A DNA stretch of 64,000 bases. Origin: Escherichia coli. GTDB lineage: Bacteria; Pseudomonadota; Gammaproteobacteria; Enterobacterales; Enterobacteriaceae. Both the position numbers and the translations under genes were made by a program. Every line of letters begins with the position of its first letter. The stretch's first letter is position 1. The notes beneath the pieces are model-generated. The model was given only the letters and a program-made list of their open reading frames with translations, was not told the origin of the DNA and ran no database searches. The stretch lies in assembly GCF_041248615.1 (NCBI RefSeq), contig NZ_CP158426.1, one strand, 5' to 3'. This document shows, piece by piece, positions 44,998 to 46,266 of the stretch.

Positions 44998-45220
44998 AGA
45001 AGTTCCTTACACATAAAAAAACGGCCAACGTCGGAAGACGTCAGCCGCTGCTTTTTATGCATAGACCTCGCCTTCCGGCAAGGTCTCACTTACAACAAAA
45101 AAGGAATACGTCTGCGTATTCCTTTCGGGTTGCCCGGTGACCGGATGTGGTTTTGCACACATCGTAATGACGATCGACCGACAATGAAGTTACTCCCCTT
45201 TGCAGGTAACAAAGTATGAC
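44998..45220 (-). promoter_or_regulatory. alx 5' leader (pH-responsive element / yybP-ykoY-type Mn2+ riboswitch)
   Basis: Minus-strand leader contains GGGGAGUA-like motif and two hairpin-plus-U-tract structures (ggaatacg...cgtattcc UUUUUU; cggc...gccg UUUUUUU) upstream of the AAGGAA Shine-Dalgarno; assignment by position and from what is known of E. coli alx. Confidence 0.55.
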
Positions 45221-45279
45221 AGACCATTCAGCCAGTCAATGGTCTGTTACATACCTTTTACACTGTTTTACTTTGGCAA

Positions 45280-46266
45280 TTATAGTTTTACGCTATCTGC
45301 CGGAAAAATCACCCCAGTCTGGCTGCGGATCTCGGTCAGCAGTTTGGCGGTGATGCGACTGACCGCCAGCCCTGGATGATCCACCAGATGCTCATCCACC
45401 AGGGTAGCGAACAGCTCTGCTTCGTAGAGCATGGTATTAATATGCTGCGGTTGGGTGAGATCCTGCATCTGGCTGCCACGCGGCACAAAACACACTTTCT
45501 GGCATTCAGACAGTTTTTCAATCACCAGCGATCCCGCTTCGCCCTGAATCTCGCTTGCCAGGACAGAATCGCTCACTTTTGAGTGCTGCAACGTAACGCT
45601 GAAATCACCGTAATCCATCACCACCACGCCGTGGGCATCTACGCCGCTTGCCAACAAACTGGCGGTTGCCTGCACGCTTTTCGGCTCACCAAATAACGCC
45701 ACCGCTGACGCCAGACAGTAAAAGCCGATATCCATAATTGAACCGTTAGAGAATGCCGGATTAAAGGTGTTGGGATTCTCACCATCCAGGTAACGTTGAT
45801 ACCGCGAGGAATACTGGCAATAGTTGAAAAAGACTTTACGCAATTTGCCGACTTTCGGCAGCGCCTGGCGCAGCAAATAAAAGTTCGGCAGGCAGGCGGT
45901 TTTAAATGCCTCAAACAGCACCACCTGATTTTCCCGCGCACAGGCAATGGCGGCATCCACTTCCGCCAGATTCGACGCCAGCGGTTTCTCGCAAATCACA
46001 TGAATTTTATGGCTAAGGAAAAGTTGTGTCTGGGAAAAGTGCAGGGCATTCGGGCTGGCAATATACACCGCGTCAATGGCATCGCTTTCTGCCATCGCTT
46101 CCAGCGACGTAAACAGATGCTCGACAGAAAAATCATTGGCGAAGTGCTGGGCCTGTTCAAGGCTGCGGGAATATACGGCGGTTAACTTGTATTTACCGCT
46201 CTCATGGGCGGCCTCGACGAACTGGCGAGTGATCCAGTTCGTACCAATCACAGCGAAACGTATCAT
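45280..46266 (-). CDS. ygjR: Gfo/Idh/MocA-family NAD(P)-dependent oxidoreductase
   Basis: ORF track 45280..46284 trimmed to MIRFAVIGTNWITRQF... (328 aa). Confidence 0.88.
   Translation of the reverse strand: MIRFAVIGTNWITRQFVEAAHESGKYKLTAVYSRSLEQAQHFANDFSVEHLFTSLEAMAESDAIDAVYIASPNALHFSQTQLFLSHKIHVICEKPLASNLAEVDAAIACARENQVVLFEAFKTACLPNFYLLRQALPKVGKLRKVFFNYCQYSSRYQRYLDGENPNTFNPAFSNGSIMDIGFYCLASAVALFGEPKSVQATASLLASGVDAHGVVVMDYGDFSVTLQHSKVSDSVLASEIQGEAGSLVIEKLSECQKVCFVPRGSQMQDLTQPQHINTMLYEAELFATLVDEHLVDHPGLAVSRITAKLLTEIRSQTGVIFPADSVKL

What the first reader, a model, noticed from the sequence alone, without database searches (positions are those of the whole stretch)
44998..45270. alx leader with two hairpin/U-tract structures ahead of the start codon
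On the minus strand the ~220-270 nt leader of alx contains a GGGGAGUA-like motif typical of yybP-ykoY Mn2+ riboswitches and two stem-loops each followed by a U-run (ggaatacg...cgtattcc UUUUUU and cggcugacgucuuccgacguuggccg UUUUUUU), the second ending ~20 nt before the AAGGAA Shine-Dalgarno. This is consistent with the known pH/Mn-responsive control of alx; the element is intact here.
Basis: partly seen in the sequence, partly recalled or inferred. Interest (0 to 1): 0.3.

Follow-up and report, generated by a model that had tools for sequence, protein, structure and literature searches.

The report
Known alx manganese/pH riboswitch leader
This is the well-studied 5' leader of the E. coli alx gene, a manganese- and alkaline-pH-sensing riboswitch with two built-in terminator hairpins; it is intact and ordinary here, and the one useful point is that the standard Rfam model cannot detect it.

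Summary
On the minus strand, between ygjR and alx, lie GGGGAGUA (45198-45191), hairpin 1 plus U6 (45122-45097), hairpin 2 plus U7 (45047-45015), the SD AAGGAA (45008-45003) and the ATG (44997).

This is the E. coli alx leader (PRE/SraF), a yybP-ykoY-class Mn2+ riboswitch that also responds to alkaline pH. Both hairpins are published intrinsic terminators: site B in aptamer helix P4 (~108 nt) and site D/P6 (~190 nt).

Rfam RF00080 gives no hit at E<=10, even on the bare aptamer. This is a model limitation. The mntP control scores only 41.6 bits against a cutoff of 45, and the alx aptamer lacks helix P2 (three-way junction).

Independent support from 67 orthologous Enterobacterales leaders: P3.1, P3.2 and the P4 base are >=98% paired with compensatory changes, and so is the anti-terminator helix (nt 128-136 with 165-173).

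A small comparative addition: the P6 hairpin and its T-run occur in all 80 orthologues, whereas a run of >=5 T after P4 occurs in only 11 of 80.

Verdict: already known, low interest.

The parts
45213..45239 (-). Putative sigma-70 promoter of alx: -35 TTGACT (45239-45234), 15-nt spacer, extended -10 TGTCATACT (45221-45213).
   Evidence: Read from the sequence only. The scan tool did not report it because the spacer is shorter than 16 nt. The start near 45204 is inferred: published termination products of ~108 and ~190 nt (PMC9472077) coincide with the two U-tracts under this numbering. Not tested here.
45078..45204 (-). Mn2+-sensing aptamer, nt 1-127, three-way-junction type (P1, L1, P1.1, L2 capping loop, P3.1-L3-P3.2, P4).
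   Evidence: Unique composite motif. 49 of 127 positions are invariant in 63 aptamers. Covariation in P3.1, P3.2 and the P4 base. Scores 124.4 bits with the alx-type model R1, which is expected by construction. Architecture from PMC12153347 and PMC12934788 (crystal structure 9JGM).
45191..45198 (-). L1 core GGGGAGUA (nt 7-14), rising strand. It also pairs with the SD region in the OFF fold.
   Evidence: Invariant in 67 of 67 leaders. In the full-length MFE fold, nt 8-18 pair with nt 197-207.
45165..45170 (-). L3 loop UCAUUA (nt 35-40), including A37, the Mn2+-coordinating adenosine.
   Evidence: C33-A37 and A40-G42 are invariant. The alx-type L3 consensus UCAUUAC and the role of A37 come from PMC12153347 and PMC12934788.
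45093..45132 (-). Aptamer helix P4 (nt 73-112).
   Evidence: P4 base: 3 of 4 pairs show compensatory change and 99.3% of cells are paired. Folds. The tip is variable in length and sequence across species.
45097..45102 (-). U6 tract of intrinsic termination site B (nt 103-108). It pairs with A80-A82 when P4 is complete.
   Evidence: In vitro, ~46% of elongation complexes terminate at ~108 nt and NusA enhances this (PMC9472077). A run of >=5 T occurs here in only 11 of 80 orthologues.
45078..45092 (-). Falling strand UAAGUGAGACCUUGC (nt 113-127): the 3' halves of P1.1, L1 and P1. This is the switch strand shared with P5.
   Evidence: Invariant in 67 of 67 leaders. Pairs with nt 2-18 in the aptamer or with nt 133-142 in P5.
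45063..45086 (-). P5 anti-aptamer hairpin (nt 119-142), part of the OFF state.
   Evidence: Forms in the MFE folds. The upper 6 pairs are kept in at least 66 of 67 leaders; the lower 4 pairs are kept in 37 to 63 of 67. Named P5 in PMC12153347.
45069..45077 (-). 5' strand of the anti-terminator ('P5/P6') helix, nt 128-136, part of the ON state.
   Evidence: 98.8% of cells paired with nt 165-173. G130-C171 changes to A-U in 12 species and A132-U169 to U-A in 4. The helix forms spontaneously at transcript length 190 nt when P1/P1.1 are held closed.
45032..45040 (-). 3' strand of the anti-terminator helix, nt 165-173. It overlaps the 5' arm and loop of P6.
45015..45047 (-). P6 ('hairpin D') intrinsic terminator: stem nt 158-183 plus U7 at nt 184-190.
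   Evidence: 94.3% of cells paired, with 3 pairs showing compensatory change. T-run found in 78 of 80 orthologues by pattern; the other two (L054, L070) also keep it. About 13% termination at ~190 nt in vitro (PMC9472077).
45003..45008 (-). Shine-Dalgarno AAGGAA (nt 197-202), 5 nt upstream of the ATG at 44997.
   Evidence: Paired in the OFF MFE fold.
44032..44997 (-). alx coding sequence, 321 aa, TerC-family Mn2+ exporter. This is the regulated gene.
   Evidence: Pfam TerC at 181.8 bits. RefSeq annotation. Function from PMC10197570.

Best explanation
This is the E. coli alx 5' leader, also known as PRE (pH-responsive element) and first seen as the small RNA SraF. It is a three-way-junction member of the yybP-ykoY Mn2+ riboswitch class and turns on the TerC-family Mn2+ exporter Alx when cytoplasmic Mn2+ rises, particularly at alkaline pH.

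Proposed sequence of events:
1. Transcription starts near 45204. P3.1-L3-P3.2 and P4 fold first.
2. The tip of P4 plus its U6 tract is an intrinsic terminator (site B) that aborts a large share of transcripts at ~108 nt, before the metal pocket exists.
3. Once nt 113-127 emerge, they can close P1/L1/P1.1 against nt 2-18. L1 then docks on L3 around Mn2+ (A37).
4. Without Mn2+, nt 119-128 pair with nt 133-142 instead (P5), and P6 forms. Some polymerases terminate at ~190 nt. In read-through RNA, the freed L1/P1.1 rising strand pairs with the SD region, so translation is off.
5. With Mn2+, and more readily at alkaline pH, the aptamer holds the switch strand. nt 128-136 pair with nt 165-173, which prevents P6 from forming and leaves the SD free, so translation is on.

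Shown here: the sequence elements, their conservation, covariation for P3.1, P3.2, the P4 base, P6 and the anti-terminator helix, and the mutually exclusive folds.

Taken from the literature: Mn2+ binding, the pH effect, termination efficiencies, translational output and Alx function.

Inferred: the promoter and the exact transcription start.
For: - Locus identity. TerC family.
- The two terminator-like hairpins.
- Unique composite motif.
- L1, the L3 core and the switch strand are invariant in 67 leaders from about 30 genera.
- Covariation for the ON structure: P3.1 3/5, P3.2 5/6 and P4 base 3/4 pairs with compensatory change, all >=98% paired. The anti-terminator helix is 98.8% paired with 3 compensatory pairs. 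For the whole structure, 0 of 500 shuffles reach the observed values, and sliding the 3' partners drops pairing from 95.6% to 35-46%.
- OFF structure: P6 is 94.3% paired with 3 compensatory pairs.
- Energetics: OFF MFE -92.2 kcal/mol, against -76.4 with the aptamer closed. At 190 nt, closing P1/P1.1 is enough for the anti-terminator helix to form.
- Published residues all match under one numbering: A11, C19, G23, U35, A37, A114, A137, and termination at 108/110 and 190.
- Literature: two intrinsic terminators B and D with 46% and 13% termination in vitro (PMC9472077). Three-way junction, P4 termination site, P5 and P6 (PMC12153347). 68-fold induction by pH and 21-fold by Mn2+ in translational reporters, and Alx exports Mn2+ (PMC10197570). 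Crystal structure 9JGM and the L2 capping-loop pH mechanism (PMC12934788).
Against: - Rfam RF00080 gives no hit at E<=1 in 4 kb, at E<=10 in 341 nt, or at E<=10 in 143 nt. It also finds none of 20 orthologous leaders. RefSeq/PGAP annotates no riboswitch here.
- P1 and P1.1 are invariant, so covariation neither supports nor opposes them.
- The 5' arm of P5 is invariant and its lower four pairs are weakly kept.
- SD pairing with L1 is 71.5% conserved, cannot show compensatory change, and is predicted by MFE in only 18 of 67 orthologues. The translational-occlusion step may therefore be partly specific to E. coli.
- The nearest-neighbour model favours OFF by about 16 kcal/mol, so the ON state must depend on ligand binding, tertiary contacts and transcription kinetics, none of which I could compute.
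Confidence: 0.95

Rival explanations
1. A plain leader with two tandem Rho-independent attenuators and no ligand-sensing aptamer. On this reading the GGGGAGUA motif is a coincidence.
For: No RF00080 hit at any threshold tried. GGGGAGTA alone occurs at chance frequency in the window. No riboswitch feature in RefSeq.
Against: The composite L1 + L3 + switch-strand motif never appears in shuffles. L1, the L3 core and the switch strand are invariant across about 30 genera, while the helices between them covary. The RF00080 model also under-scores the proven mntP aptamer. Published Mn2+ response, A37U phenotype and crystal structure (PMC12153347, PMC12934788).
Confidence: 0.02
2. The leader is primarily a small-RNA gene (SraF). 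The ~108-nt or ~190-nt terminated products would be the functional output and act in trans, with alx regulation a by-product.
For: The region was first catalogued as the sRNA SraF, and in vitro ~46% of complexes terminate at site B and ~13% at site D (PMC9472077). Both terminators are confirmed in the sequence.
Against: None of the papers read reports a trans target. The site-B U-tract is absent from most orthologues (>=5 T in 11 of 80), while the aptamer and P6 are universal, so a 108-nt product is not the conserved feature. Deleting the leader changes alx expression in cis (PMC10197570). This reading could coexist with the riboswitch function.
Confidence: 0.08
3. A pure pH sensor that works through prolonged RNA polymerase pausing at alkaline pH (the original PRE model), with Mn2+ binding irrelevant.
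For: The original description of PRE as a pH-responsive element, with kinetic control of folding, as cited in PMC9472077 and PMC10197570. The large energy gap favouring OFF is consistent with some form of kinetic control.
Against: Pauses were measured to be shorter, not longer, at alkaline pH (PMC9472077). Alkaline pH alone cannot activate the switch, Mn2+ binding is required, and A37U abolishes the pH response (PMC12153347, PMC12934788). The Mn2+-binding residues are invariant across orthologues.
Confidence: 0.05

Closest known systems
E. coli K-12 alx leader (PRE, pH-responsive element; SraF), the three-way-junction yybP-ykoY Mn2+/pH riboswitch
   Same: The same element. It is 207 nt from the published +1 to the ATG, in the same position between ygjR and alx, with identical L1, L3, switch strand, P5, P6 and both terminator U-tracts. 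Only 3 substitutions relative to K-12.
   Different: nt 24 is U rather than C, giving a U.G wobble in P3.1. nt 50 and 55 in the P3.2 apical loop are C rather than A. No functional difference is expected.
Canonical four-way-junction yybP-ykoY Mn2+ riboswitches (E. coli mntP, L. lactis, X. oryzae; Rfam RF00080)
   Same: The L1 core GGGGAGUA. An L3 internal loop containing CGUCA with the Mn2+-coordinating adenosine. Two helical legs. A P1.1 switch strand shared with the expression platform. Control of a metal-exporter gene (TerC family here).
   Different: No P2 helix: a 3-nt capping loop replaces it, giving a three-way junction. L3 is UCAUUAC rather than ACAUACU. P4 is long and carries an intrinsic terminator. 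The response includes alkaline pH. The two types are mutually undetectable by covariance models: RF00080 misses alx and the alx-type model R1 misses mntP. The alx type is confined to Enterobacterales (PMC12153347).
Terminator/anti-terminator (transcriptional) riboswitch expression platforms
   Same: Holding P1/P1.1 closed frees a strand (nt 128-136) that pairs with the 5' arm of a terminator hairpin (P6) and prevents it from forming.
   Different: In E. coli the measured output is mainly translational (68-fold translational induction at alkaline pH, PMC10197570). Termination at P6 is only about 13% in vitro and barely pH-dependent (PMC9472077). The platform combines a weak terminator with SD occlusion.

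Membership tests
yybP-ykoY Mn2+ riboswitch | Match to the Rfam RF00080 covariance model at or above its gathering score of 45 bits. This is a detection criterion, not a biological one. | tested here: not met
   No hit at E<=1 in 4 kb, at E<=10 in 341 nt or at E<=10 in 143 nt. None in 20 orthologous loci. The control, the E. coli mntP aptamer, scores 41.6 bits, which is also below 45.
yybP-ykoY Mn2+ riboswitch | Conserved L1 sequence GGGGAGUA on the 5' strand, opposite an A/G-rich 3' strand followed by P1. | tested here: met
   GGGGAGUA at nt 7-14 and GAGA-CCUUGC at nt 118-127. Both are invariant in 67 of 67 leaders.
yybP-ykoY Mn2+ riboswitch | L3 internal loop between P3.1 and P3.2 carrying the conserved Mn2+-coordinating adenosine. 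| tested here: met
   C33-G34-U35-C36-A37 is invariant. It is flanked by P3.1 (3/5 pairs compensatory) and P3.2 (5/6 compensatory), both about 98% paired. The metal contact itself is known only from the literature (PMC12934788).
yybP-ykoY Mn2+ riboswitch | Four-way junction with a P2 hairpin stacked on P1. | tested here: not met
   Only 5 nt (C19-G23) separate P1.1 from P3.1, leaving no room for a helix. The literature describes a three-way junction with an L2 capping loop (PMC12153347, PMC12934788). This defines a structural variant and does not exclude it from the class.
yybP-ykoY Mn2+ riboswitch | P4 helix completing the left leg. | tested here: met
   P4 base: C73-G112 is invariant, and pairs 74-111, 75-110 and 76-109 covary; 99.3% of cells are paired.
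yybP-ykoY Mn2+ riboswitch | The 3' strand of P1/P1.1 pairs alternatively with the expression platform (switch helix). | tested here: met
   nt 119-128 belong both to the aptamer P1/L1 3' strand and to the P5 5' arm. P5 is 91.5% paired across orthologues, but no covariation is possible because the strand is invariant.
yybP-ykoY Mn2+ riboswitch | Located upstream of a metal-transport gene (TerC, MntP/UPF0016 or P-type ATPase families). | tested here: met
   Alx matches Pfam TerC PF03741 at 181.8 bits, E = 1.3e-53.
yybP-ykoY Mn2+ riboswitch | Binds Mn2+ and regulates expression in response to it. | not testable with these tools
   Literature only: 21-fold induction of the translational reporter by 500 uM MnCl2 (PMC10197570); Mn2+-dependent docking and crystal structure 9JGM (PMC12934788).
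alx-type (PRE) three-way-junction subclass | L3 consensus UCAUUAC, an L2 capping loop in place of P2, and a position upstream of an alx orthologue in Enterobacterales. | tested here: met
   UCAUUAC at nt 35-41, and C19/G23 with U18/A114 present. Same arrangement in the 80 orthologous loci, apart from L029, which has lost the aptamer core. The R1 model score of 124.4 bits is circular, because the window sequence was in the training set.
Intrinsic (Rho-independent) terminators, applied to the two hairpins | A G+C-containing stem-loop immediately followed by a U-run. | tested here: met
   Both are reported by the scan, with 12 and 13 pairs and tails TTGTTGTAAG and TTTTTATGTG that follow the T's already counted inside the reported stems. 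Two were found against 0.3 expected.
Intrinsic (Rho-independent) terminators, applied to the two hairpins | Actual release of RNA polymerase at the U-run. | not testable with these tools
   Literature: products of ~108 and ~190 nt persist after chase. About 46% and 13% termination at pH 7.2, and NusA enhances site B (PMC9472077).

The most novel reading that the evidence does not exclude
The strong terminator inside the aptamer (site B, the tip of P4 plus U6) may be a recent, lineage-restricted addition. An uninterrupted run of >=5 T after P4 occurs in only 11 of 80 orthologous leaders (Escherichia, Pseudocitrobacter and a few others). Enterobacter, Kosakonia, Cedecea and Pantoea have a short P4 with no U-run. 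On this reading, Escherichia added a pre-aptamer gate, sensitive to NusA, that sets the fraction of transcripts allowed to sense Mn2+ at all, or that makes the ~108-nt SraF fragment for a separate trans-acting role. The tip of P4 also looks like a tolerated landing site for REP and ERIC-type repeats.
Probability: 0.12. Interest if true: 0.4.

Novelty: already known. Interest (0 to 1): 0.1.

Why it matters
The element itself adds nothing new biologically. It has been studied since 2009 by reporter assays, transcription kinetics, co-transcriptional probing, smFRET and crystallography.

The practical value is methodological. The standard covariance model (RF00080) and RefSeq/PGAP annotation miss this experimentally proven riboswitch, which is present in 5,419 of 5,426 complete E. 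coli genomes. 'No Rfam hit' therefore must not be used as a refutation for this class, and a separate model of the three-way-junction subclass would close the annotation gap.

The 67-leader alignment built here also gives independent phylogenetic support for the published anti-terminator ('P5/P6') helix. It shows in addition that the two terminators differ sharply in how widely they are conserved.

Tried and rejected
1. RF00080 scans of progressively shorter stretches (4 kb, 341 nt, 143 nt) and of 20 orthologous loci found nothing. I rejected 'not a yybP-ykoY element' as the conclusion after the mntP control scored below threshold.

2. My first reading placed GAGACC...GGUCUAUGCAUA as an L3-like element. 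This was wrong. GAGACC is the 3' strand of L1/P1, and GGUCU is the 3' arm of P5. L3 is UCAUUA at nt 35-40.

3. A local hairpin GAUCG/CGAUC around L3 appears in the MFE fold of nt 1-126. I rejected it because A43-U60 and U44-A59 covary as part of P3.2, and the G31/C32 variants are not compensated.

4. I initially paired G23 with C73. I dropped this because C73-G112 heads the covarying P4 helix, and the literature pairs G23 with C19.

5. A reverse search of mntP with an alx-type covariance model found nothing. The link between the two subclasses therefore rests on the shared L1/L3 cores and published 3D structures, not on model scores.

6. SD occlusion by L1 as a conserved feature was inconclusive.

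7. The 45-aa ORF at 45090-45227 (-) starts upstream of the mapped 5' end and overlaps the aptamer. I did not pursue it as a leader peptide.

8. An attempt to read the 2009 PRE paper by PubMed id failed because it is not held.

Full report
**What is in the sequence.**
- GGGGAGTA lies at 45198-45191.
- A GGAATACG/CGTATTCC hairpin followed by T6 lies at 45122-45097.
- A CGGCTGACGTC/GACGTTGGCCG hairpin followed by T7 lies at 45047-45015.
- AAGGAA lies at 45008-45003, and the ATG of a 321-codon ORF at 44997.

The consensus scan reports exactly these two terminator-like sites on the minus strand, where 0.3 would be expected by chance. The 8-mer GGGGAGTA alone is not beyond chance: 1 was found against 0.77 expected. 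The composite AAAGGGGAGTA...CGTCA...GAGACC never occurs in 100 shuffles.

Two small corrections apply. The leader is 207 nt (45204-44998) rather than 220-270. The second U-run ends 6 nt before the SD rather than about 20.

**Where it is.** The 501 bases around the leader match 5,419 of 5,426 complete E. coli genomes at >=95% identity, between ygjR and alx. RefSeq annotates the two genes and nothing between them. The ORF product is a TerC-family protein (Pfam 181.8 bits), and K-12 annotates it as the Mn2+ exporter Alx. The 288-nt intergenic region differs from K-12 MG1655 at three positions: nt 24, 50 and 55. These fall in a wobble position of P3.1 and in the P3.2 apical loop. The element is therefore intact.

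- Rfam 15 RF00080 gives no hit at E<=1 in 4 kb, at E<=10 in 341 nt, or at E<=10 on the bare 143-nt aptamer.
- It gives none in 20 orthologous loci.
- As a positive control I fetched the E. coli mntP leader, whose aptamer has been crystallised. RF00080 finds it at only 41.6 bits, below its own gathering score of 45.
- The printed consensus of that model includes a P2 hairpin after L1 and an L3 reading GUCAACAUACU. The alx RNA has no P2 and has GUCAUUAC.
- In the reverse direction, a covariance model I built from 63 alx-type aptamers scores the window at 124.4 bits, finds no second copy in the 64 kb, and does not find mntP even with filters off at E<=10.

The two E. coli Mn2+ aptamers are thus mutually invisible to covariance models. 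The failed test reflects the model, not the RNA.

**Anatomy.** Published residue numbers all coincide with the right bases if nt 1 = window 45204. These include A11 in L1, C19.G23 and U18.A114 in the L2 capping loop, U35-A37 in L3, A137 in P5, and termination at 108/110 and 190 nt. On that numbering:
- P1 is nt 2-8 with 122-127.
- L1 is nt 9-14 opposite 118-121.
- P1.1 is nt 15-18 with 114-117.
- P3.1 is nt 24-28 with 67-72.
- L3 is centred on nt 35-40.
- P3.2 is nt 42-47 with 56-61.
- P4 is nt 73-112.
- P5 is nt 119-142.
- P6 is nt 158-183, followed by U184-190.
- The SD is nt 197-202.

Its U-tract pairs with A80-A82 when P4 is complete. The second hairpin is P6 in the expression platform.

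**Comparative test.** A search of one genome per species with the Alx protein returned 80 loci, from Escherichia to Pantoea, Erwinia and Winslowiella. L1, the L3 core and the switch strand GTAAGTGAGACCTTGC recur at fixed relative positions. In a MAFFT alignment of 67 distinct leaders, nt 2-18, 33-37 and 112-129 are invariant. I counted pairs for the published ON structure.

| Helix | Pairs with compensatory change | Cells paired |
|---|---|---|
| P3.1 | 3 of 5 | 98.2% |
| P3.2 | 5 of 6 | 98.1% |
| P4 base | 3 of 4 | 99.3% |
| Anti-terminator (nt 128-136 with 165-173) | 3 of 9 | 98.8% |

In the anti-terminator helix, G130-C171 is replaced by A-U in 12 species and A132-U169 by U-A in 4. For the whole structure, none of 500 shuffles reaches the observed values, and sliding the 3' partners by 1-3 columns drops pairing from 95.6% to 35-46%.

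Some caveats apply. The shuffle control ignores phylogeny. The structure was derived from E. coli, which favours it over the slid versions. P1 and P1.1 never vary, so they are uninformative.

For the OFF structure, P6 is 94.3% paired with 3 compensatory pairs. P5 keeps its upper six pairs in at least 66 of 67 leaders, but its lower four only in 37 to 63 of 67, and it has no compensatory change because its 5' arm is the invariant switch strand.

**Switching logic.**
- The full-length MFE fold (-92.2 kcal/mol) is the OFF state: P5, P6, and nt 8-18 paired with nt 197-207 across the SD.
- Forcing P1/P1.1 closed costs about 16 kcal/mol.
- At transcript length 190, when the polymerase sits on the U-tract, forcing P1/P1.1 closed is enough for the anti-terminator helix to replace P6 (-65.6 kcal/mol with or without enforcing it).

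This fits a kinetically controlled, ligand-stabilised switch.

SD-L1 pairing is less well supported outside E. coli. It is 71.5% conserved, cannot show compensatory change, and is predicted in 18 of 67 MFE folds.

**What the literature adds (not testable here).**
- Hairpins B and D are characteristic intrinsic terminators. About 46% and 13% of complexes terminate at ~108 and ~190 nt in vitro. NusA enhances site B. The leader was first seen as the sRNA SraF (PMC9472077).
- The aptamer is a three-way junction without P2 and has an intrinsic termination site in P4. The alx type occurs only in Enterobacterales and has L3 UCAUUAC. Alkaline pH alone does not switch it; Mn2+ binding is required (PMC12153347).
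- Translational reporters rise 68-fold at alkaline pH and 21-fold with Mn2+, and Alx exports Mn2+ (PMC10197570).
- A crystal structure (9JGM) and a proposed A114 protonation mechanism in the L2 capping loop explain the pH sensitisation (PMC12934788).

- The two terminators differ in conservation. The P6 T-run is found in 78 of 80 loci by pattern. The other two also have it: one is interrupted by an ERIC-like insertion and one is followed by 45 extra nt. A run of >=5 T after P4 occurs in only 11 of 80, and many genera have a 14-17-nt P4 with no U-run.
- The P4 tip and the P3.2 loop tolerate large insertions of repeat elements.
- One species (Atlantibacter sp. RC6, L029) has lost the aptamer core.

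**Verdict.** The element is already known in detail, so interest is low. The useful lesson is that a missing Rfam hit is not evidence against this subclass.

Noticed in passing
window 43763-43928 (-), within the alx-sstT spacer 43417-44031: A G+C-rich structured segment gives a sub-threshold full-length match to Rfam TwoAYGGAY (29.9 bits against a cutoff of 43, E = 0.083; first loop CAUGGAUG) and folds better than shuffles (z = -3.19). The spacer is 615 nt here and 398 nt in K-12, which carries a different repeat at this site. A 261-nt query around the segment matches 16,039 places in 5,425 of 5,426 E. coli genomes (median 3 copies per genome), with nothing annotated under the eight matches listed. 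It looks like an unannotated dispersed repeat encoding a structured RNA.
   Followed up: partly
L002 about 910-1072 (Escherichia albertii NBRC 107761): About 160 nt containing two REP-like palindromes is inserted inside aptamer helix P4, flanked by a partial duplication of the P4 hairpin. The REP-like palindromes gave weak Rfam naRNA4 and ES036 hits. L1, L3, the switch strand, P5 and P6 are intact.
   Followed up: partly
L013, L014, L036 (Siccibacter, 'Enterobacter pulveris'); L023, L057 (Superficieibacter); L054 (Erwinia persicina): ERIC-like or REP-array insertions of about 150-270 nt sit in the tip of P4. In L054, an ERIC-like element sits between the two arms of the P6 terminator. The P4 tip appears to be a tolerated insertion site for repeat elements.
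   Followed up: partly
L029 1090-1203 (Atlantibacter sp. RC6): The leader reads CTGCAAAGGGGAGTCACTTCCTTGCCGGAAGGCGAGAC... The whole aptamer core (about nt 27-122) is missing, apparently by recombination between two CTTGCCGG direct repeats. P6, the T-run and the SD are retained. This is a natural aptamer-less variant.
   Followed up: no
L016, L027, L056, L076 (Phytobacter and relatives, Winslowiella): Insertions of 35-70 nt in the apical loop of P3.2. The helix below them is conserved.
   Followed up: no
window 45219-45247 (-): A perfect 10-bp inverted repeat, ACAGACCATT...AATGGTCTGT, with a 9-nt spacer, lies just after the ygjR stop codon. It overlaps the putative -35 (TTGACT) and abuts the extended -10 of the alx promoter. 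It could be a ygjR terminator stem or a regulator binding site.
   Followed up: no
window 45257-45286 (+): A promoter-like site on the opposite strand (TTTACA-18-TATAGT, 10 of 12 matches) points into the 3' end of ygjR in antisense. It is probably a chance match in A+T-rich intergenic DNA.
   Followed up: no
L082 2462-2558 (E. coli K-12 mntP leader): The crystallised mntP Mn2+ aptamer scores 41.6 bits with RF00080, below the family's gathering cutoff of 45. Threshold-based annotation would therefore miss both E. coli Mn2+ riboswitches.
   Followed up: yes
alignment A1/A2 column for nt 19 (window 45186): C19 is the residue proposed to form a C19.A114+ wobble in the pH-sensing L2 capping loop. 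It is not invariant: it is G in Pluralibacter- and Pantoea-type leaders (L015, L021, L058, L061, L077, L080, L081), and the loop is one nt shorter in L066 and L069. A114 is invariant. This may bear on how general the proposed pH mechanism is.
   Followed up: no
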